The notes beneath the pieces were generated by a model. That model searched no databases and was not told where the DNA came from. It saw nothing but the letters and a program-made list of their open reading frames with translations. From positions 1,760,001 to 1,824,000 of the forward strand of contig CAXWPH010000015.1 in assembly GCA_963666055.2 (NCBI GenBank): a stretch of DNA of 64,000 nucleotides, in the 5' to 3' direction. How positions within the stretch are numbered: position 1 is the stretch's first letter; every line of letters starts with the position of its first letter. This DNA comes from Acidobacteriota bacterium (GTDB lineage Bacteria; Acidobacteriota; UBA890; WLXD01). The translations under genes and the position numbers were made by a program. Shown here in pieces: positions 6,114 through 61,782 of this stretch.

Positions 6114-6175
6114 CTAGTGGCCTGTAACAGATGATCGTTGCGTATCGTGGTGTCGAAATGGGTCCGGATGACTAG
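6114..6175. mobile_element. Truncated end of MITE family A
   Basis: 6114-6170 matches the reverse complement of the right end of 14448-14725 (2 mismatches) and is followed by a second CTAG at 6172-6175. Confidence 0.85.
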
Positions 6176-12115: not shown

Positions 12116-14437
12116 ATGAAGAGGTCCCGTCCGCCCGTTCTCACCATCGCGCTGTTGATGCTGGTATCGGCAGCCGTGCTGCCCTCATCGAACCGCGCCG
12201 CCGCCGCGATCCACTCCAACGCCATGGCGCATCCAGGGCTCGGCATCGCTCAGGAAGCGCTGCCGGCGCAGACGCCGCTGTTCCGCAGCGCGGTGACACG
12301 AGTGCGCGTCGATGCCATCGTCACCGACAACGACGGCAATTTTGTCGACAACCTCACTCAGGAAGACTTCCAGATCTTCGAGGACGGCGTCGAGCAGCGA
12401 ATTCTCAATATTCAGCTGGTCGACCTCGAGACCGGCGAAACGGTCGACGTGCCATCGGAATCTGCCGCGCACGAGAGCGCCAGCTCGAGCACCGGCGGCA
12501 ACGGTGCGTACGACGCTGGTGCGGAGCTCACAGCGATCGCCAGAACGCCCGGTACGCTCGGTGCGATCGTCTACCTCGTCGACCTGCCAAGCCTGGATCA
12601 AAAAAACAAGCCCAGGCTCGCCGCGACTTTCCACGACTTCATCGAGGGTTCCGAGACACTGCACGTGCCGCGTAGCGTGTTCATGATCGACCAGCATGGC
12701 GCAGTGCAGGAGCTCGCCCCCCTGACCACCGATCGTGACGTGCTACGCGAGGCGGCCGAGAAGTTGTCTGTGGCTGGGCTGACACGCAAGACCATATTCA
12801 CGCGCATCACGACGGACTACGAGCCCGTGATGCAGCTGGCGATCGAGGCAGTGAACTCCGCCACCACGGGCGCCGGTTTCGCCGTGGGGACACCGCTCCA
12901 ACAAAATGTAAGACTGCGCGAGATCGTCGGCAACCTGGAAGAACAGGCGCGGCGAGACGGGGATCTGGAGCGCCAGCGGGGTGAGGCGACACTCACCACC
13001 CTTCTCCGCTTCACCAACGCCCTGTCGGCGATGGAGGGGCGCACGGCGCTGGTGTGGATCTCCTCCGGGGCCATGCTCAGTGAAGGCGGCCCGTACCAAG
13101 CCTACGCGGCCGCCGTTCGCGATGCGGTTGCCGTAGAGGCCGGCCGATCGCGGCTCGGGCGGGCCGCGCCGAACCGTCGCATCCTGGACCTACTGGAGGA
13201 GCTGTACGAAACCGCCAACACCGGCAACGTGAGCATCTATACGGTGGATCCGCGACCGATCTCCGAGCTCAACAATCTCGGGACCGCGGCTAGCGTCAGC
13301 GACAATCTCGTTTCGCAAGCGCTGCGTCGGCACGTTCGCCCTGCATATCGCGACCTCACTGCGCCTCTGCACGAGATTGCCAGCAGGACCGGCGCCCGGG
13401 CGTTCATCGGCTGGAGCAACCTGTCGGACGCCTTCGAGCAGCAAGTCCGCGACGCGAGCCGCTTCTACCTGGTGTTCTACGAGCCGCCACCGCCGCACGC
13501 CGATGGCGAGTACCACCAGATCGAGGTGACCCTGCGGCGGCAGGGCTTGCAGGTCCGCGCCCGCTCAGGCTACCGCGATCTGGCAGAGCCCGAGCTGAAG
13601 ACGCGCCAGATCGCCGCCGCGCTGGCGCTGCCCGGCTCGGTCATGGGTCGTCCGGTTCCGACTGCGGCGTATCAGCGATTCGCCGACGACGGCACGCCAA
13701 CCATCCTGCTAGTCGCTGGTCTGCCGCTGCCTGCGGAATCAGTCGACGGCAGCTGGGCTCCGGCGTTCGAGAGCATCGATATCTCGAGCCCCGACGTCAC
13801 CGCTGCCGACGGCTGGGTCGAGACCCTCGGTATCCGATACTTCCGGGTGCACGCCATCGCGCTGAACCGCGCCGGCAAAGTCGGCGCCGAGAGCCATGTA
13901 GTGGTCGAGCCGAGGCCGGACCTGTTTCGATACGCGCCCGACAACGCCTTCCGGCACTTCCGGTATACGGCCGAGTGGAGCGTCGATCCGGGTGAGTACG
14001 ATCTGCGCGTCGTGATCGCCGAGGACGGCGGCGACCGTGTGGGCACGGCGCGCCTCGAAGTTGAGGTGCCGTCTCCGGCAGACGGTTGGAACATGGGAGA
14101 CCCGATGCTCGTGGCGGTGGATCAGCGCACCGGGCTGATGCCGTTGCTCGGGCAAGGCGTGCCGGCGGGCATGCCGATCGCAGCCAGTGTCGAGGTTATA
14201 CATGGCATCGATCCGTTCGTGTCGGCAACGATTTTCCGTCGCGATGCGCGACGACCGGTTGCCGACATACCGGGGCAGTCGCTACCGCCCACCGGCCTGA
14301 CGGTGCACCGAGGAGCGCTCAAGCTGCCCACCAACCTCGAGCCAGGGAACTACCTGGTCGAGGTTCGGGTCATCGATGTCGACGCCAATGGGCAGGCGAT
14401 TCGACTGCTGCCCCTGGAAGTAGTCGCCCGCAACTAG
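12116..14437 (+). CDS. Exported VWA-domain protein (VWFA-related acidobacterial type)
   Basis: AGGAG RBS before ATG 12116. Signal peptide, FRSAVTRVRVDAIVTD..FVDNLTQEDFQIFEDGVEQ, SIYTVDP, DGEYHQIEV and VRARSGY. Confidence 0.85.
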   Translation: MKRSRPPVLTIALLMLVSAAVLPSSNRAAAAIHSNAMAHPGLGIAQEALPAQTPLFRSAVTRVRVDAIVTDNDGNFVDNLTQEDFQIFEDGVEQRILNIQLVDLETGETVDVPSESAAHESASSSTGGNGAYDAGAELTAIARTPGTLGAIVYLVDLPSLDQKNKPRLAATFHDFIEGSETLHVPRSVFMIDQHGAVQELAPLTTDRDVLREAAEKLSVAGLTRKTIFTRITTDYEPVMQLAIEAVNSATTGAGFAVGTPLQQNVRLREIVGNLEEQARRDGDLERQRGEATLTTLLRFTNALSAMEGRTALVWISSGAMLSEGGPYQAYAAAVRDAVAVEAGRSRLGRAAPNRRILDLLEELYETANTGNVSIYTVDPRPISELNNLGTAASVSDNLVSQALRRHVRPAYRDLTAPLHEIASRTGARAFIGWSNLSDAFEQQVRDASRFYLVFYEPPPPHADGEYHQIEVTLRRQGLQVRARSGYRDLAEPELKTRQIAAALALPGSVMGRPVPTAAYQRFADDGTPTILLVAGLPLPAESVDGSWAPAFESIDISSPDVTAADGWVETLGIRYFRVHAIALNRAGKVGAESHVVVEPRPDLFRYAPDNAFRHFRYTAEWSVDPGEYDLRVVIAEDGGDRVGTARLEVEVPSPADGWNMGDPMLVAVDQRTGLMPLLGQGVPAGMPIAASVEVIHGIDPFVSATIFRRDARRPVADIPGQSLPPTGLTVHRGALKLPTNLEPGNYLVEVRVIDVDANGQAIRLLPLEVVARN

Positions 14438-14448
14438 TCGCCCGCAAC
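14421..14448 (+). repeat. 14-bp tandem duplication at the MITE junction
   Basis: TAGTCGCCCGCAAC at 14421-14434 and again at 14435-14448. Confidence 0.9.
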
Positions 14449-14725
14449 TAGTGGCCTGTAACAGATGATCGTTGCATATCGCAGATGGGATTTGCGGGTG
14501 AGATCAAGGCGCGGCGAGGAAGGCGATGCAGTGGGCATCGTCGATGAGGCGCAACGCCGAGATCGCCCGCAACTGCCCATCTGTCCGCAGGATGGCGGCG
14601 AAATCGGCCCGTCTGCGGCGTTGCTCCTCCTCGAGGATGGGCAAACATCGTCTCGTCGTCGCGCCTGGCATCCGGACCCATTTCGCCACCACGATATGCA
14701 ACGATCATCTGTTACAGGCCACTAG
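14448..14725. mobile_element. MITE family A, complete (278 bp including both CTAG)
   Basis: Perfect 34-bp TIR CTAGTGGCCTGTAACAGATGATCGTTGCATATCG. Two internal hairpin arms at 14482-14583 and 14593-14691. No credible ORF. Confidence 0.9.
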
Positions 14726-14746
14726 TGTCCTGAGTCAGGACACTAG
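14722..14746. repeat. Perfect 25-bp CTAG-bounded palindrome (collapsed element of a third family?)
   Basis: CTAGTGTCCTGA-G-TCAGGACACTAG, sharing its left CTAG with MITE-A. Confidence 0.8.
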
Positions 14747-14771
14747 AGCGCCGTGGTGGAAGTGTGGCGGG
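14743..14771. repeat. Degenerate MITE-B terminus
   Basis: CTAGAGCGCCGTGGTGGAAGTGTGGCGGG resembles the MITE-B TIR. Confidence 0.65.
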
Positions 14772-14781
14772 CCGTCAGATT

Positions 14782-16014
14782 CTACGAGGCTCCTTGACCC
14801 GGCTCCGTGGCGTTGACCAACGCTCCCATGTTGCCGTAGGGGTGGCGGTTCTCGTGCATCAGCTGATGCGCCTCGCCGATCTCATCGAACGCGAAGGTCT
14901 GTGACAGGCAAGGATCCACTTTCTTGTCGATGATCAGCTGGTTGACCGCCGCTGCCTGCTCGTCGTTGGACAGGTGGCTGCCCTGGAAGCGCTTCTGACG
15001 CATCCAGTGATACCGCAAATCGAGCGTCGCGTTGTAACCGGTGGTGCCGGCGCAGATCACCACCATGCCGCCAGTCGAGGCCACGAAGATCGACGTCGGG
15101 ATGGTCGCTTCTCCCGGGTGGTCGAAGACGATCGTCGGGCTTACGCGCCCGCCGGCAGCCTCCCAGATCGCCTTGCCGAAAGCTCGTGCCCCCTTCGCCC
15201 AGGCGCCGTACTCCGGGCTGTTGGTGTCGGGCATCACCCCCCAGTGGTCGAAGTCGCTGCGATTGATGACACCGATGGCACCGAGCTGCTTGCAGAAGTC
15301 GACCTTGTCCTCGCTCGAGACAACCGCGATCGGCCGGCCGCCGACGGCGGCGGCGATCTGGATCCCCATCGAGCCTAGCCCCCCCGCGCCTCCCCAGATC
15401 AACACCACGTTGTCGGGCTCGACGACGTTCGGCGCCCATCCCATCAACATGCGATAGGCAGTCGAGGCGCAGAGCATATAGCAGCCGGCCTGCTCCCAGG
15501 TGAGGTGCTCGGGCTTGGGTTGGCACTGGTGCGCTTGTGCTTTGGCGAACTGGCAAAAACTGCCGTAGTTGGTCTGGTAGCCCCAGATCTTGGTGCTCTC
15601 GGCGAGCATCGGGTCGCGCCCCGACAGCACCCACGGATCCTCCGGATGCCACCAACCGCTATGAACCACGACCTCGTCACCTGGCTTCACGTTGGTGACA
15701 TCGTCGCCGACCTTCCAGACAATCCCCGAGCAGTCGCTGCCTCCGGCGTGGAAATCCTCGGGCTCGCCGCCCTTCTGGCGCACCGCGATGACGTCGAGCG
15801 GCTTGCCGAGCGCCGCCCATACGTTGTTGTAGTTGATTCCCGTCGCCATGTTGTAGATCAGCACCTCGTCGGAACCGATCACAGGCGTCGGGATGATCTC
15901 GTGCTTGAACGCGTCGCGAGGCTCACCAAAGCGGTCCTGCCGGATGATGCAAGCGTGCATCTCGTCCGGAACCTCACCGAGTGGCGGGCGTTCTCCAAGC
16001 TCACAAATCTTCAT
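14782..16014 (-). CDS. ccr: Crotonyl-CoA carboxylase/reductase family (ECR) enzyme
   Basis: [72 protein letters not shown] and [19 protein letters not shown]. Confidence 0.88.
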
Positions 16015-16158
16015 GGGGTCTCCTGACCGAGGCAGTTCGCAAGTCTCTTACTCAAGCGGCGTGGCACGAACGCCAGGACGCCAGTGGATCCCCTCATATC
16101 GCCGTTCCGCCCGTCGATGTCAAGTCGGCAGGGCGGCAAGACCAGCGGCTGACACCTG

Positions 16159-16436
16159 CTAGCAGGCCGTGGTGAAAGTGTGGTGGGTCTGGTTACGGCG
16201 AGTTAGGGCCAGGTGCAAGGCGGCCTGACACAGGCGATGCCCCGGCCATCGTCGAGGAAGGCCAACGCCGCAAATGGCCCCAAATCGCCATAACCCTTCG
16301 GGCGACAGGGGGTTGCGCGCGTATGCTGCGTCGTTCCTCGTCAACGATGGGGTAACCATCGCCTCCTCCTCTCTCCTTGCCTCACTTCGCAAGACCCTGT
16401 CGCCAGACCCGCCACACTTTCACCACGGCCTGCTAG
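16159..16436. mobile_element. MITE family B, complete (278 bp)
   Basis: 34-bp TIR CTAGCAGGCCGTGGTGAAAGTGTGG(T/C)GGGTCTGG with 1 mismatch. Near-identical to 17887-18143 and, inverted, to 41242-41521. Confidence 0.92.
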
Positions 16437-16448
16437 TGTGCGCCCTAC

Positions 16449-17240
16449 ATGCATGCAACAAAGCCCGGGGGAGCCCTCGAAGCCACGCTCCGTAACGACC
16501 GCCTGTTCGTGCTGGGCGGGTTGATCGCCGCCTCACTGCTCGCCTGGGTGTACACGGTCAAGCTGGCTCGGGAGCTCCCGCACCTGCCCGCAGCGCACAT
16601 CGGCGCAGCGCGAACCCTCCCCTGGAATCCGGGTGACTTGGGGCTGCTGTTCCTGATGTGGACGGTCATGATGACCGCCATGATGGTACCAACCGCCGCG
16701 CCGATGGTGCTGGCGTTCGCCAAGATCAAGCGCAAGCAGGGCCCAGATCTTGCACCGATGTGGCCGGTGGTCGCCTTCGTGCTCGGCTACGTTGTCGTGT
16801 GGACGGTGTTCAGCGGCTTGGCAACTATTGTGGAGTGGAGGCTGCATGTTGCCACCCTGGTAGACGTCGACGGCGCCGCCGCCAGCCCACTCTTCGGCGG
16901 GGTGCTCCTGTTCACGGCCGGAGTGTTCCAATGGACGCCGTTGAAGCAAGCCTGCCTCAGACACTGCCGTTCGCCGCTGGCATTCTTCATGACCAGCTGG
17001 CGCGACGGCTGGCGCGGTGCCCTGGCCATGGGGCTCGAACACGGCATCTACTGTGTCGGTTGTTGCTGGGCGCTCATGGCCCTGATGTTCGTCGCCGGGG
17101 TCATGAACCTGCTATGGCTGGCGGTAATCGCCGCCTTCGTGCTGCTGGAAAAAGTGGTCCCGTCCGTGCGACTGGTGAGCAATACCGCCGGCGTCTTGCT
17201 GACCGTCTGGGGGTTGTACTTGATCCGCCTGGGCTTCTGA
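16449..17240 (+). CDS. DUF2182 predicted metal-binding membrane protein
   Basis: MWTVMMTAMMVP, QWTPLKQACLRHCRSP, HGIYCVGCCWALM and GVMNLLW..LLEK. Confidence 0.88.
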   Translation: MHATKPGGALEATLRNDRLFVLGGLIAASLLAWVYTVKLARELPHLPAAHIGAARTLPWNPGDLGLLFLMWTVMMTAMMVPTAAPMVLAFAKIKRKQGPDLAPMWPVVAFVLGYVVVWTVFSGLATIVEWRLHVATLVDVDGAAASPLFGGVLLFTAGVFQWTPLKQACLRHCRSPLAFFMTSWRDGWRGALAMGLEHGIYCVGCCWALMALMFVAGVMNLLWLAVIAAFVLLEKVVPSVRLVSNTAGVLLTVWGLYLIRLGF

Positions 17241-17278
17241 CAGGTGCTAAGGTCCTGACTCGAGAAACGGGAGGAGCT

Positions 17279-17890
17279 ATGGCGGCAGGTTGGAGGATCC
17301 GTGGCGAGATTGTGCTGAGCTGCAACTGCGATGTGTTCTGTCCGTGTGTGGTGTCGCTCGGAACCGCGCAGCCCAGCCATGGTGTCTGCCACACCTGGTA
17401 CGCCATCAACATTCACCAGGGCAATGCCGGCCGGTTGAAGCTTGACGGCCTCAAGGTCGCTGTCCTGATGGATGTACCTGGCGCGCTCGCCGACGGAGGT
17501 TGGACGGTAGGGCTCTACGTCGACGAGAAAGCCAGCGCGGCAAAAGTGACGGCGCTCGAGAGGATCCTGTCGGGCAAGGCAGGTGGGCCCATCAGCTGGT
17601 TCTCGATCATGATCGCCGATTTTCTCGGCACCAAGCAGGTACCGATCAGCTTCGAAAAAGAGGGGCGCGGCTGGCGTGTCGGCATCCCTAAGATCATCGA
17701 CGGCCACGTGGAGCCCATAAAGGGGCGCGGCGGTAAGGGAGTCACCAAGGTGACCAACAGCGGCTATTGGATGGCGCCCGATATCGTCGTGTGCAGCGCA
17801 AAGGTGAGCCGGTACCGTGACTGGGGACGGAACTGGAACCTCGAGGGCCAGAGCGGCGAGTACGCCAAGATCGACTGGCAGGGGCCCTAG
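17279..17890 (+). CDS. DUF1326 domain protein
   Basis: GGAGGAG RBS before ATG 17279. WRIRGE..SCNCDVFCPC..HGVC and ILSGKAGG. Its TAG stop lies in the CTAG of MITE-B. Confidence 0.88.
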   Translation: MAAGWRIRGEIVLSCNCDVFCPCVVSLGTAQPSHGVCHTWYAINIHQGNAGRLKLDGLKVAVLMDVPGALADGGWTVGLYVDEKASAAKVTALERILSGKAGGPISWFSIMIADFLGTKQVPISFEKEGRGWRVGIPKIIDGHVEPIKGRGGKGVTKVTNSGYWMAPDIVVCSAKVSRYRDWGRNWNLEGQSGEYAKIDWQGP

Positions 17891-18143
17891 CAGGCCGTGG
17901 TGAAAGTGTGGCGGGCCTGGTTACGGCGAGTTGGGGCCAGATGCAAGGCGGCCTGACGCAGGCGATGCCCTAGCCATCGTCCAGGAGGGCCAACGCCGCA
18001 GATGGCCCCAAATCGCCGTAACCCTCCGGGCGATAGGGGGTTGCGCGCATGTGCTGTGTCGTTCCTCGTCAACGATGGGGTAACCATCGCCTCCTCCTTT
18101 CTCCTTGCCTCCACCTCGCAAGACCCTGTCGCCAGGCCCGCCA
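17887..18143. mobile_element. MITE family B, right TIR truncated
   Basis: Co-linear with 16159-16436 in the same orientation. Similarity stops ~10 bp into the right TIR. Confidence 0.88.
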
Positions 18144-41241: not shown

Positions 41242-41521
41242 CTAGCAGGCCGTGGTGAAAGTGTGGTGGGTCTGGCGACAGGGTCTTGCGAAGTGGAGGC
41301 AAGGAGAGAGGAGGTAGGCGATGGTTACCCCATCGTTGACGAGGAACGACGCAGCATACGCGCGCAACCCCCTGTCGCCCGAAGGGTTACGGCGATTTGG
41401 GGCCATCTGCGGTGTTGGCCTTTCTCGACGATGGCTAGGGCATCGCCTGTGTCAGGCCGCCTTGCATCTGGCCCCAACTCGCCGTAACCAGACCCACCAC
41501 ACTTTCACCACGGCCTGCTAG
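41242..41521. mobile_element. MITE family B, complete (280 bp), inverted relative to the 16159 copy
   Basis: Perfect 34-bp TIR with CTAG ends. Interior is the reverse complement of the 16159 copy. Lies between divergent genes. Confidence 0.92.
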
Positions 41522-44960: not shown

Positions 44961-44970
44961 CGGCGTTCGC

Positions 44971-46896
44971 CTACTCCTCGTCGTCGGCGACCGCACCCGA
45001 TTTCACGATCGGCAGGATCACGTGCGACGGGTACTGCGCCGAGTGGTGGACGATCTGGTTGGCCACCACCCACTCGGTCTCGTCGTAGTTGTTGCCGCCG
45101 GTGTTGAGGTTGCGGTCGAAGCGCGGGAAGTCGCTGCTCGTCACGTCGACGCGGATCCGGTGCCCCTTGCCGAAGTAGTTGGACGACGAGTGCAGGTCGA
45201 GGCGGATCTCGTAGACCTCGCCTTCCTCCATCCAAACGGGTACCGAGTCGTTGTCGCGGTAGCGCACCCGGCGCGCGCCTTCCTGGATGTTGAAGGCGCG
45301 TCCATCCGGGTAGACGTCGACGAGCTTGAGCATGAAGTCGGTGTCCTTGGCGTCGGAGCCGACGTAGAGAACCGCGCTGATGTCGCCGCTCATCTCGAGG
45401 CCTTCCTCCAGCGGCTCGGACGTATAGACGAGGATGTCGGCGCGCATCTCGTTGTTCGACTGGTCATAGCTACCTGAACCGTCAGGCAGGCCCGTGCAGC
45501 AGGTGTTGCCGCCGCGCGTCGGCACCGGAGTGCCCGGATCGTAGGTGTAGCGATCGGCCGGCTGATCGCCGCTCGGCGCGCTCCAAGACAGCGTGCCGTC
45601 GCCGAAGCGGCTGTTGGCGCGGCCGTCCGACTGCAGGAAGATCTTGGTATCGGTGGTCCCCTGCGGCGGCCACACTTCCGACTCGCGCCACTCGTTGGCG
45701 CCCATCAGGTAGTACTGCACCCGCGGCATGTCGGTGATGCCGTTGTCCTCACCGTCGAGCCAGTGCGACATCCAGCGCATGTAGATGTCGAGGAAGTCCT
45801 TGCGGGCGTCGCCGAGCTCACGCTCGCCGATGATGGTGTTCTCGGTGGCGCGGGTCCAGCCGCAGTGGGTCGACGGGGCGACGATGACGAACTGGTTGCT
45901 GCGGGCGTGCTCGCTGACCGCATTGTCGCGCATCTGGTTGAACATCGTCAGCGTCTCGTCGACGCCGAAGTCGTACCAGGAATCGATGTACAGCGCCGGT
46001 ACGTCGAAGGTGTCGTCGGAGCGGATGAAATCGTTGTCGTAGAAGTAATCAGACTCGGGCGGGTTGGTGAGGTACTCCTCGTAGTCGGTGTGCGTCATGC
46101 CGGTGTTCTTGACGAGGTCGATCACCGGTAGAGCGTCGAAGGCGCCGACGCGGCTGCGGCGGCCGCCACCTTCGGCGCCACGACGAGGGTCGGCGTAGTT
46201 CTCGAACTTGCGCGCCATCTCGCCCTTGAACCACTCCTCGCGGTCGACCCAATCCGGTGGCTGCAGGAACACTTTGCTACCGGCGCCCATGAACCAGCCG
46301 GCGGTCTGCGCCAGCTCGAACACGCCGCCGTCGTAGGACGCCCAGGGCCGCCCCGGTGGGTAGTAGGCCGACGAGGGCGCCGCGGGTATCGCGGCGATGT
46401 GATTGGGGTGCTTGGAAGCCGCCAGCGCCAGCTGCGTCTCGCCTAGGTACGAGCAGCCGAAGCTGGCCACCTTCTGGTTGGACCACGACTGGTTGATCAT
46501 CCACTCCACTGTGTCGTAGCCGTCCTCGCGGTCGGAATAGCGCAACCGGTAGTTGCCTTCAGACTCGTAGCGGCCACGGATGTCCTGCACCGCCACCACG
46601 TAGCCCTTGTCGACGAACATCGAAACGGTGGTGCCTCGGCCACTGTTCTCCTTGTTGTAGGGCGTCCGGATGAGGACGGTGGAGCGCGGACCCTCGGCAC
46701 CAACGGGGAAATAGATGTCGGTCGACAGCCGTACGCCATCGCGCATCGGCACCATGTTGCTGCGGTCCCGACGCACCTCGTAGCCGTCCTGGGAGGCACC
46801 CTCGGAGGCCCAGCCAGCAGCACCACCGGGCACCGATAGGGAAATGACCAACACTGCGATCGCGATCAGGGACCAGCTTGCTTTCTTTCCACGCAC
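44971..46896 (-). CDS. CocE/NonD (S15) family hydrolase, exported, paralog 1
   Basis: PMRDGVRL, IRTPY, QDIRGR, GCSYLG, WYD and RFDRNLNTG. GGAGG 5 nt before GTG 46896. Confidence 0.9.
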   Translation of the reverse strand: MRGKKASWSLIAIAVLVISLSVPGGAAGWASEGASQDGYEVRRDRSNMVPMRDGVRLSTDIYFPVGAEGPRSTVLIRTPYNKENSGRGTTVSMFVDKGYVVAVQDIRGRYESEGNYRLRYSDREDGYDTVEWMINQSWSNQKVASFGCSYLGETQLALAASKHPNHIAAIPAAPSSAYYPPGRPWASYDGGVFELAQTAGWFMGAGSKVFLQPPDWVDREEWFKGEMARKFENYADPRRGAEGGGRRSRVGAFDALPVIDLVKNTGMTHTDYEEYLTNPPESDYFYDNDFIRSDDTFDVPALYIDSWYDFGVDETLTMFNQMRDNAVSEHARSNQFVIVAPSTHCGWTRATENTIIGERELGDARKDFLDIYMRWMSHWLDGEDNGITDMPRVQYYLMGANEWRESEVWPPQGTTDTKIFLQSDGRANSRFGDGTLSWSAPSGDQPADRYTYDPGTPVPTRGGNTCCTGLPDGSGSYDQSNNEMRADILVYTSEPLEEGLEMSGDISAVLYVGSDAKDTDFMLKLVDVYPDGRAFNIQEGARRVRYRDNDSVPVWMEEGEVYEIRLDLHSSSNYFGKGHRIRVDVTSSDFPRFDRNLNTGGNNYDETEWVVANQIVHHSAQYPSHVILPIVKSGAVADDEE

Positions 46897-46998
46897 AGGT
46901 GCCTCCGGAGGCGAGGTGATTCGGGCAGACACAGATCGGCTGGCGGATCTGTATCACGTTCGCCGCCGCGTGTAGAGGGGCAGCGAGGTTGCCGCCGG

Positions 46999-48945
46999 CT
47001 AGTTTTCGTCGTCGGCCACCGCTCCCGATTTCACGATCGGCAAGATCACGTGCGACGGGTACTCAGCGGAGTGGTGCACGATCTGATTCGCCAGCACCCA
47101 CTCGGTCTCGTCGTAGTTGTTGCCACCGGTGTTCAGGTTGCGGCTCCAGCGCGGAAAATTGGAGCTCGATACCTCGACACGGATGCGGTGGCCCTTGGCG
47201 AAATAGTTGGACGCGGCATGCAGGTCCAGTTGAATCTCGTACACCTCGCCCGCTTCCATCCACACCGGGACGGAAAGATTGTCGCGGTAGCGCATCCGCC
47301 GCGCGCCCTCCTGGATGTTGAAGGCACGACCATCCGGATACACGTCTACCAGCTTCAGTGTGAAGTCGGTGTCCTTCGCATCGGAGCCTACGTACAGCAC
47401 CGCGCCGAGATCACCGGTGACCTCGATGCCTTCCTCGAGCGGCTCGGAGGTGTAGACCAAGATGTCGGCACGCATCTCGTTGGTCGACTGGTCGTAGCCG
47501 CCGGAGCCCTCGGGAAACCCGGTGCAGCAGGTGTTGCCGCCCCGGGTGGGGACGGGCGTCGCCGGATCGTAGGTGAAGCGATCGGCCGGCTGATCGCCGG
47601 AGGGCACTGACCACGACAGCGTGCCGTCGCCGAAGCGGCTGTTGGCGCGACCCCCCGACTGCAGGTAGATCTTCTCGCTCGTCGTGCCCGAAGGCGGCCA
47701 GTAGTCGTCGCTGCGCCACTCGTTGGCGCCCATCAGGTAGTACTGCACCCGCGGCATGTCGGTGATGCCGTTGTCGTCGCCCTTGAGCCAGTGGGCCATC
47801 CAACGCATGTAGATGTCCTGGAAGTCCTTGCGCGCATCGCCCAACTCACGCTCGCCGACGATGGTGTTCTCCGTGGCGCGCTCCCAGCCGCAGTGGGTCG
47901 AGGGGGCAACGATAACGAACTGGTTTCTGCGCGCCCGCTCGCTCACCGCCTTGTCGCGCATCTGGTTGAACATCGTCAGCGTGTCGTCGACGCCGAAGTC
48001 GTACCAGGAGTCGATGTAGAGCGCCGGCACGTCGAAGGTGTCGTTGGAGCGTATGAAGTCGTTGTCGTAGAAGTAGTCCGACTCCGGCGGGTTGGAGGCG
48101 TATTCCTCGTAGTCCGTGTGGGTCATGCCCCGGTTCTTGACGATGTCGACGATCGGCAGATGCTGGTACGCCTGGAAGGCATTCTCGCGACCGGCGTCCG
48201 GATAGACCATGAACTTGCGCGCCATATCGCCCTTGAACCACTCCTCGCGATCGATGTGGTCCGGCGGCTGCATGAACACCGTCGTGCCGCTGTTGAGGAA
48301 CCAGCCGGCGGTCTGCGCCAGCTCGAACACGCCCCCGTCGAACGACGACCACGGCCGCCCCGGAGCGTAGTACGCGGCCGACGGCGCCTGCGGCATCGCC
48401 GCGATGTGGTTCGGATGCTTGGCAGCCGAGAGCGCCAGCTGCGTCTCGCCCAGATATGAGCAACCGAAGGTGGCGACCTTCTGGTCCGACCACGGCTGGT
48501 TGATCAGCCACTCGACGGTGTCGTAGCCGTCGTCGCGGTCCGAGTAACGCACCCGGTATCGCCCCTCCGATTCGAAGCGGCCGCGGATGTCCTGCACCAC
48601 GACCACGTACCCCTCGGAAACGAACGTCGGGATCCAGCCGGGGTCGTCGGCCAACCGAGTGCGGCGATAAGGGTAGGTGTTCTCCTTGTTGTAGGGAGTG
48701 CGGATCAGGATCGTGGAAAGCGGCCCCTCGGCGCCGTCCGGAAAGTAGATGTCGGTCGACAGGAGCGCCCCGTCGCGCATCGGCACCATGTTGCTGCGGT
48801 CCTTGCGTACCTCGTAGCCGCCTTCGTGACCCTCCTGTCCGGAAGCCGGGGCAGCCGACCATCCTGCGGCGCCGCCGGGAGTGGCCAGCGCGATGGCGAG
48901 CGCGGCGATTACGATCACGGACCAGCTTGCCTTCTTTCCAGGCAC
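46999..48945 (-). CDS. CocE/NonD (S15) family hydrolase, exported, paralog 2
   Basis: Same motifs and highly similar to paralog 1. GGAGG 5 nt before GTG 48945. Confidence 0.9.
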   Translation of the reverse strand: MPGKKASWSVIVIAALAIALATPGGAAGWSAAPASGQEGHEGGYEVRKDRSNMVPMRDGALLSTDIYFPDGAEGPLSTILIRTPYNKENTYPYRRTRLADDPGWIPTFVSEGYVVVVQDIRGRFESEGRYRVRYSDRDDGYDTVEWLINQPWSDQKVATFGCSYLGETQLALSAAKHPNHIAAMPQAPSAAYYAPGRPWSSFDGGVFELAQTAGWFLNSGTTVFMQPPDHIDREEWFKGDMARKFMVYPDAGRENAFQAYQHLPIVDIVKNRGMTHTDYEEYASNPPESDYFYDNDFIRSNDTFDVPALYIDSWYDFGVDDTLTMFNQMRDKAVSERARRNQFVIVAPSTHCGWERATENTIVGERELGDARKDFQDIYMRWMAHWLKGDDNGITDMPRVQYYLMGANEWRSDDYWPPSGTTSEKIYLQSGGRANSRFGDGTLSWSVPSGDQPADRFTYDPATPVPTRGGNTCCTGFPEGSGGYDQSTNEMRADILVYTSEPLEEGIEVTGDLGAVLYVGSDAKDTDFTLKLVDVYPDGRAFNIQEGARRMRYRDNLSVPVWMEAGEVYEIQLDLHAASNYFAKGHRIRVEVSSSNFPRWSRNLNTGGNNYDETEWVLANQIVHHSAEYPSHVILPIVKSGAVADDEN

Positions 48946-49109
48946 GGGTGCCTCCGGAGTCGAGTGGGTCGAGCGCACGATTGGATGGTGGATCTGTACC
49001 ACGTTCTGCGTCGAGGTTGGAGGGGTGCTTGCGTACTACCCGCCCTCGCCGAGGCGTGCCGGGCCTCACGATCGGAAGAGACCGATCACGGGGTACATCC
49101 AAACGCGCT

Positions 49110-61707: not shown

Positions 61708-61758
61708 CTAGCAGGCCGTGGTGAAAATGTGGTGGGTCTGGCGACAAGGTCTTGCGAC
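61708..61758. mobile_element. MITE-B terminal fragment
   Basis: CTAGCAGGCCGTGGTGAAAATGTGGTGGGTCTGGCGACAAGGTCTTGCGA matches the start of the 41242 copy with 2 mismatches. Confidence 0.85.
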
Positions 61759-61782
61759 GTCGATACCAACAGGAGCGAAACG

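What the first reader, a model, noticed from the sequence alone, without database searches (positions are those of the whole stretch)
14448..16436. Two MITE families with unrelated TIRs carry the same two-hairpin, ERIC-like cargo
Seen: family A (14448-14725) and family B (16159-16436; also 17887 and 41242) are both 278-280 bp with 34-bp TIRs ending in CTAG, yet the TIR sequences differ. Inside, each has two ~100-nt imperfect hairpins arranged head-to-head (A: 14482-14583 and 14593-14691; B: 16191-16295 and 16301-16404), separated by a tiny hairpin (CCTTCGGG in B). All four arms follow roughly CAAGG(C/A)G..GCGATG-loop-CATCG..GAGG..C(A/G)ACGC, while the basal stems differ in sequence but still pair. 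Knowledge, from memory: the enterobacterial ERIC repeat contains GCAAGGCGGC..GCCAACGC, as arm 1 of B does, and CTAG targets are typical of IS5/IS701-type DDE elements. Inference: a structurally selected hairpin module, either an RNA element or an ssDNA recognition site, travels as an inverted pair under interchangeable IS ends. That would be a two-layer mobile/regulatory system rather than a plain IS deletion derivative.
Basis: partly seen in the sequence, partly recalled or inferred. Interest (0 to 1): 0.8.

Follow-up and report, generated by a model that had tools for sequence, protein, structure and literature searches.

The report
Four-way hairpin cassette swaps transposon ends
Two small gene-less jumping elements with ends from unrelated transposase families carry the same pair of folded hairpins, each a relative of the core of E. 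coli's classic ERIC repeats, held at a fixed distance from the ends in many bacteria, which likely means the folded DNA strand helps these elements move.

Summary
A and B are real MITEs: the genome has about 85 full B, 10 A and 6 copies of a third family, C, and relatives have empty sites. A's ends are IS630-type, B's match an IS1182-like IS, C's an IS5. The arms are absent from those IS. Each arm is a covarying, strand-specific hairpin module found in at least nine phyla, in two lengths about 21 nt apart. A model built without enterobacterial sequence picks E. coli ERIC copies (11 of 13 hits), so the ERIC lead is right. This scan found the core before on other DNA. Added here: the two-arm form is itself a conserved cassette. 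It is predicted to fold into a gap-free four-way junction with a GNA-triloop mini-hairpin (107 of 121 loci), 33-34-nt ends and a 54-56-nt end-to-motif distance under many unrelated ends. There is no linked gene, no HUH/RAYT partner, no Rfam match and no general orientation to transcription. Best reading (0.45): a folded-DNA mobility element, re-housed when transposases change. Function is untested.

The parts
14448..14725 (.). MITE family A, complete copy, inserted at the TAG stop of the upstream VWA-domain gene
   Evidence: site empty in G001
14448..14481 (+). Left TIR of A (34 bp, IS630-type)
   Evidence: 23 of 30 bases match the right end of an IS630 in G007, 18 of 30 the genome's own IS630
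14482..14583 (+). Arm A1, type II module, motif face on + (motif halves at 14505 and 14552)
14584..14592 (.). Mini-hairpin of A, 3-bp stem with GCA triloop; fourth arm of the predicted junction
14593..14691 (-). Arm A2, type I module, motif face on - (motif halves at 14668 and 14623)
14692..14725 (-). Right TIR of A
   Evidence: I11
14722..14773 (.). 25-bp palindrome made of an IS630 end, followed by a TIR-B remnant, stacked at the same CTAG hot spot
16159..16436 (.). MITE family B, complete copy
   Evidence: single CTAG at the empty site in G001, G003, G004, filled in G002
16159..16192 (+). Left TIR of B (34 bp); first 21 nt identical to the left end of an IS1182-like IS of G011
16193..16293 (+). 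Arm B1, type I module, motif face on + (motif halves at 16216 and 16263)
16294..16302 (.). Mini-hairpin of B, 3-bp stem; TTC loop on +, GAA on -
16303..16402 (-). Arm B2, diverged type II module, motif face on - (motif halves at 16379 and 16333); missed by both covariance models, similar to the other arms by direct alignment
16403..16436 (-). Right TIR of B
   Evidence: I12
17887..18143 (.). Family B copy, right TIR truncated, at the TAG stop of the upstream gene
41242..41521 (.). Family B copy, complete, opposite orientation
61708..61760 (+). Family B fragment (TIR plus base of arm B2)
6114..6170 (+). Family A fragment, followed by a TIR-C remnant

Best explanation
A and B are non-autonomous transposons whose ends match IS630 and IS1182/IS5-type elements and whose shared interior is a conserved two-hairpin cassette that likely acts as folded single-stranded DNA and is predicted to promote the element's own mobilisation. 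Inferred mechanism: when a strand is exposed (lagging strand, transcription, supercoiling), the two TIRs pair, and the strand forms a gap-free four-way junction of TIR stem, arm I, GNA mini-hairpin and arm II. A conserved internal-loop motif then lies about 55 bp from the TA end, where an unknown, widely conserved factor would bind and favour end processing or copying. The inverted pair gives each strand one working motif. Because all these elements insert at TA in CTAG and rebuild CTAG at their ends, new IS ends keep landing beside the cassette. Replacement of the old TIR at the same length would re-house the cassette under whichever transposase is available. ERIC is a single-arm, long-class member of the same module family.
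For: Shown: TIR-transposase matches to two unrelated transposase groups. No arm in 30 IS loci by HMM and 30 by covariance model, the two sets sharing 28 loci. Covariation in 46 long and 29 short non-redundant modules: 172 and 181 double-change cells, 0 of 500 shuffles, slid controls low. One strand is preferred: G-T 92 vs A-C 34 in basal stems. Motif spans are bimodal, 57-62 nt (56) and 76-85 nt (66), with 1 of 123 between. TA-to-motif is 54-57 nt in 14 of 26 short-class elements with callable ends. In metagenome two-arm loci, TA-to-junction is 33-34 nt in 26 of 31 and end-to-motif 54-56 in 24 of 30, under up to 25 TIR clusters, although only about 21 nt match the IS. The free triloop is GNA or its complement in 107 of 121 loci against about 19% background; C-GNA-G is a DNA-stable loop (own knowledge). 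16 of 21 shortened B copies lost arm B1 at many different breakpoints, as expected if it folds as DNA. An IS630 of G007 abuts B-type ends in 8 of 9 copies examined, and hybrid B/C and C/A' elements exist.
Against: No binding factor is identified: 148 neighbouring ORFs show no enrichment. DDE transposases are known to act on duplex DNA, and the autonomous IS move without the module. TNC followed by G also reads as an RNA UNCG loop, and G-T pairs suit RNA as well. Apical loops show no DNA- or RNA-type signature. Long-class end distances vary from 23 to 54 nt. Only 43 of 91 full-flank loci passed the strict junction script, and I ran no random control for it. Within B copies, G-T vs A-C events are even (18 vs 17 in arm B1). 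The own-genome orientation bias (40 vs 6) fits an RNA-level effect for B. The 20 fixed motif letters in the alignments come from my search pattern.
Confidence: 0.45

Rival explanations
1. The module works as RNA. It is a processing, protection or anti-termination element that makes an insertion next to a stop codon tolerable, as reported for ERIC in Yersinia, so MITEs carrying it survive.
For: Motif face folds better as RNA in 114 of 123. B between co-directional genes is type-II-first on the mRNA in 40 of 46, p 3e-7. 43 of 85 B copies sit at a TAG stop. Some copies lie in rRNA spacers and tRNA clusters. An orientation-dependent RNase E effect of ERIC is reviewed in PMC2229807.
Against: No bias in G007 (5:6), G011 (6:3), G012 (2:3), G046 (3:5) or in pattern-found modules of other phyla (18:25). 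No GNRA or UNCG enrichment in apical loops. No Rfam family. It does not explain a fixed distance to the TA end.
Confidence: 0.25
2. The module is its own mobile unit, cut and inserted by an unidentified structure-specific nuclease (REP/REPIN-like). The IS ends are secondary captures.
For: An inverted pair with a mini-hairpin recalls REPIN/BIME layouts (recalled). Some modules have stems with no obvious IS end. Fixed lengths suggest a measuring enzyme.
Against: No Y1/RAYT gene in this genome or in five relatives rich in copies. Y1 occurs in 16 of 22 module-positive and 24 of 36 module-negative gammaproteobacteria. No module beside 30 Y1 loci. Nearly all arms in this genome lie inside TIRs. Empty sites lack the whole element, TIRs included.
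Confidence: 0.17
3. No function. One ancient MITE core persists because template switching keeps palindromes paired and DDE transposases amplify whatever lies between their ends.
For: The motif is not more conserved than the rest among 85 B copies (4.7 vs 3.6 changes per column). Left and right TIR variants are concordant, as copying between arms would give.
Against: Palindrome correction would erase, not keep, the asymmetric loops. Bases not fixed by my pattern are conserved across phyla (104, 94 and 113 of 117 just upstream; 110 of 117 before the 3' half). Strand bias, quantised lengths, the GNA loop and constant TIR length are unexplained.
Confidence: 0.13

Closest known systems
ERIC / IRU / RU-1 of Enterobacterales and Vibrionaceae (127 bp; PMC2229807, parts 1-2 of 3 read)
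   Same: Same hairpin core. A model from non-enterobacterial modules hits ERIC at full length, and 11 of its 13 hits on an E. coli chromosome are ERIC (10 overlap BLAST copies on the same strand, 1 is a diverged copy judged by eye). TA ends, intergenic, no coding capacity for a transposase.
   Different: ERIC has one long-class arm about 25 nt from its end. A and B have two short-class arms, 34-bp IS-matching TIRs and a predicted four-way junction. The short-class model does not hit ERIC.
IS-derived MITEs such as RUP (IS630-Spn1) and IS5/IS1182-end MITEs (PMC2229807; PMC3184786 passages)
   Same: TIRs match autonomous IS ends; TA duplication in CTAG; many dispersed copies; empty sites.
   Different: The interior is not IS-derived and is shared across transposase families and phyla, whereas whole MITEs are reported as about 97% genus-specific at 95% identity (PMC11602168, abstract and passages).
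Geobacter metallireducens Gmet_R10xx 'predicted short RNA elements' (PMC2700814, Fig. S1 legend and supplement table read)
   Same: The printed alignment shows, by eye, the reverse complement of both motif halves and the same apical palindrome as long-class modules.
   Different: Described as one family of 24 RNAs with relatives in four deltaproteobacteria. No link to ERIC, IS ends or a two-arm form in the passages seen.
REP / BIME / REPIN with RAYT (TnpA-REP) (PMC3184786 passage; rest recalled)
   Same: Strand-specific imperfect hairpins arranged as inverted pairs.
   Different: Arms here are about 100 nt and sit inside DDE-type TIRs, and no Y1 enzyme is present in the genome.
CIR repeats of Caulobacter (PMC2229807)
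   Same: Two stem-loop arms joined by a linker.
   Different: CIR lacks TIR pairing and carries GANTC. Sequence relation not tested.

Membership tests
MITE | Terminal inverted repeats around a short non-coding interior | tested here: met
   34-bp TIRs, 278 bp
MITE | Multiple dispersed copies and empty sites with target duplication | tested here: met
   85 B, 10 A, 6 C full pairs; single CTAG at empty sites; variation at the outer base favours TA duplication
MITE | Ends shared with an autonomous IS | tested here: met
   B 21 of the first 21 nt with an IS1182-like IS (model score below cut-off); A 23 of 30 with IS630; C 20 of 21 by eye with IS5
MITE | Mobilisation in trans by that transposase | not testable with these tools
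   needs a transposition assay; the B- and C-matching IS were found only in relatives
Plain IS deletion derivative | Interior derived from IS subterminal sequence | tested here: not met
   no arm inside the IS at 30 loci by HMM or at 30 loci by covariance model, best 13 bits
ERIC | Core hairpin motif | tested here: met
   one model hits window arms A1, A2, B1 (36-54 bits) and ERIC (24-45 bits) over background up to 15 bits
ERIC | 127-bp single hairpin with ERIC termini | tested here: not met
   278 bp, two arms, other termini; arm HMM finds no ERIC
ERIC | RNase-dependent effect on co-transcribed mRNA | not testable with these tools
   only RNA contigs were available
REP/REPIN-RAYT system | Cognate Y1 (HUH) transposase in the genome or beside the repeat | tested here: not met
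   (genome 95.7% complete)
REP/REPIN-RAYT system | GTAG or CGTC tag before a 20-40-bp palindrome | not tested
   arms are about 100 nt; tag not scored
Curated RNA family (Rfam 15) | Match to a covariance model | tested here: not met
   none on the module in the window or at 40 loci from other genomes

The most novel reading that the evidence does not exclude
A large part of bacterial MITEs, ERIC included, are not decayed IS but one ancient structured-DNA parasite that borrows transposon ends. It moves as a folded single strand whose paired TIRs rebuild a transposon end at a measured distance from a host-factor binding motif. The two-arm, four-way-junction form makes both strands competent, independent of the transposase family.
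Probability: 0.3. Interest if true: 0.9.

Novelty: new variant of a known kind. Interest (0 to 1): 0.72.

Why it matters
ERIC repeats have been known since 1990 without an explanation for their conserved interior. Here that interior is one member of a cross-phylum module that sits under ends of unrelated transposases with a fixed geometry. That gives precise variables to test in E. coli K-12: motif, spacing, junction and triloop. If the fold promotes mobility, it changes how non-autonomous elements are thought to amplify and points to an unknown conserved nucleic-acid-binding activity. It may also give a portable enhancer for mini-transposon tools.

Tried and rejected
Rfam: nothing on the module. 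An arm HMM did not find ERIC; only the long-class covariance model did. A strict inner-core pattern found 0 viral loci; the loose pattern found 13, about 5 real by eye. Pfam scan of 148 neighbouring ORFs (one per side, from 80 of the 121 loci): no family in more than 4 members, no transposase in the top 25. Leading/lagging bias of B (27 vs 51, p 0.009, local skew as proxy) is weaker than, and confounded with, gene direction. A general transcription-orientation rule was rejected (direction caller agreed with my gene calls in 71 of 82). Apical loop signature: none. A first end-finding script over-extended and was discarded. The arm tree (43 rows, 71 columns) is weak, and my type labels were swapped for ownB, L121 and L259 and unsure for L029; read with corrected labels it puts A1 with B2 on a 92/96 branch and separates the gammaproteobacterial arms. 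RNA run X1 gave one 164-nt contig on A's interior with 5 differences: uninformative. Promoter/terminator scan at chance level. Literature: 10 full-text searches found no paper describing the cross-phylum module or the two-arm cassette. Subscription papers, including the primary ERIC papers, are not held, 6 of 19 supplements of PMC2700814 were not seen, and ISfinder could not be searched.

Full report
Observation. Both elements are at the stated places, 278 bp with 34-bp TIRs. The four arms are alike beyond chance: every pair beats 1000 of 1000 shuffles that keep hairpin symmetry, and the likeness is face-specific. The window is G000:C15. The host is probably an Acidobacteriota member (an acidobacterial VWA model hits the gene beside A; earlier notes say the same).

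Copies and mobility. TIR pairing gives 85 full B, 10 full A, 6 full C (a third TIR type) and 21 shortened B copies. B-like elements match in 22 of 41 genomes searched, G000 included, nearly all in the same order. The B site of the window is a single CTAG in G001, G003 and G004 and filled in G002; the A site is empty in G001. Of 85 B copies 68 have CTAG at both ends, and most exceptions differ at the outer base, which favours a TA duplication. 43 of 85 sit at a TAG stop by my own gene calls.

Ends. The first 21 nt of TIR-B are identical to the left end of a 1.5-kb IS of G011 whose transposase scores best, below cut-off, with IS1182. TIR-C matches an IS5 of G007 (20 of 21 by eye). TIR-A matches an IS630 end of G007 at 23 of 30 and the genome's own IS630 at 18 of 30. 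IS630 and IS5/IS1182 are unrelated groups (established knowledge). None of these IS carries an arm. The cargo is therefore not subterminal IS sequence.

The module. Spans fall in two groups, 57-62 nt (56) and 76-85 nt (66; the pattern stops at 85), with one chance match between. The difference, about 21 nt, is one helical turn of stem. Letters the pattern left free are conserved as well. Non-redundant alignments of 46 long and 29 short modules covary strongly against both controls; the shuffle control ignores relatedness, and the invariant motif pairs are fixed by the pattern. Basal stems hold G-T 92 times and A-C 34 times, so one strand is the folding one. The long-class model finds copies in 5 of 15 genomes of the same phylum and 22 of 81 of the class of a Pseudomonas genome, again in two length groups. 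A third group in G035 has a side hairpin that leaves the main axis unchanged.

ERIC. Model R1 contains no enterobacterial and no window sequence. It scores window arms A1, A2 and B1 at 36-54 bits and two ERIC copies at 24 and 28 bits, with background up to 15. On a whole E. coli chromosome 10 of its 13 hits overlap BLAST-defined ERIC copies on the same strand, one more is a diverged ERIC by eye, and two are chance; it missed 7 of the 17 BLAST matches. The short-class model hits the window arms but not ERIC or B2. The elements share ERIC's core but are not ERICs.

The two-arm cassette. A script that allows no unpaired base between TIR, arm, mini-hairpin and arm found 22 cassettes among the loci held, 7 of them from Pseudomonadota, with the motif mostly 20-24 nt from the junction. 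With DNA energies, A folds into exactly this four-way junction; B's minimum-energy fold opens the mini-hairpin by a 2-bp shift. A junction pattern on metagenomes hit its limit at 121 loci. The three free loop bases are GNA or the complement in 107 of 121, against 23 of 124 and 397 of 2028 in background. 43 of 91 loci with full flanks pass the strict script; no random control was run. Among those, TA-to-junction is 33-34 nt in 26 of 31 and end-to-motif 54-56 nt in 24 of 30, under IS630-like, IS5-like and other ends. Single-arm short-class elements keep the same distance: 54-57 nt in 14 of 26 short-class elements with callable ends (of 52 examined, two-arm ones included); six Streptomyces copies at 81-84 carry a side hairpin. 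Long-class distances vary (15 callable of 79). Most cassettes pair a canonical type I arm with a variant type II arm; a weak tree puts A1 with B2 rather than with A2.

How ends may be swapped (inferred). All families target CTAG and rebuild it. An IS630 of G007 abuts B-type ends in 8 of 9 copies examined. Hybrid B/C and C/A' elements exist in this genome. Variants of the left and right TIR are concordant within copies (p about 1e-7 at three positions; subfamily structure contributes). Capture of a new end and copying to the other side would fit, but no intermediate was traced.

DNA or RNA. For DNA: constant TIR length beyond the part that matches the IS, fixed end-to-motif distance, GNA triloop, quantised lengths, and repeated loss of arm B1 (16 of 21 shortened copies keep only B2, many breakpoints). 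For RNA: B is type-II-first on the mRNA in 40 of 46 co-directional sites, and ERIC is reported to affect mRNA decay (PMC2229807). The bias does not recur in four other genomes and may reflect B2's C-rich tract acting as a Rho site in the rarer orientation (inference). No partner gene, Y1 enzyme or Rfam family was found.

Prior knowledge. Ten paper searches found no description of the cross-phylum module; one Geobacter family was printed as predicted short RNAs. Earlier notes of this scan filed family B as an ordinary MITE and reported the ERIC-like core on other DNA several times; I read the latter. A word search of the notes for the four-way junction and fixed distance returned nothing, which is a narrow test.

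Verdict. Real, MITE-borne, ERIC-related and geometrically constrained across transposase families. Mechanism inferred, not shown. New variant of a known kind; interest 0.72.

Noticed in passing
window 14430-14773: The TAG stop of the VWA gene is a hot spot: a 14-bp direct duplication, element A, a 25-bp IS630-end palindrome (6 matches in the genome) and a TIR-B remnant are stacked there; relatives carry other remnants at the same site.
   Followed up: partly
G000:C11:160030-160420: The loop of arm B1 often contains CTAG, and B inserts into itself, giving tandem 83-bp units of TIR plus half arm (four in a row here).
   Followed up: no
L257, L260, L279, L270, L271: Single modules sit in 16S-23S spacers just before a tRNA or the 23S gene, and between tRNAs, in several gammaproteobacterial genomes.
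   Followed up: partly
L228-L236 (G035): A 30-nt G/C-rich side hairpin is inserted at one position in many long-class modules without changing the main axis.
   Followed up: partly
L082, L095, L099, L131, L132: Long-class modules under IS5-type ends have a doubled TIR on one side only (53-54 nt versus 22-23 nt to the TA).
   Followed up: no
G007: At least 150 DUF772 transposase copies and 43 IS630 copies in a 5.1-Mb genome.
   Followed up: no
window 44968-49002: Two tandem paralogous genes of about 2 kb, 75-90% identical in stretches.
   Followed up: no
window 14782-17890: Crotonyl-CoA carboxylase/reductase gene divergent from two genes without NCBIfam match; B sits in the shared upstream region.
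   Followed up: no
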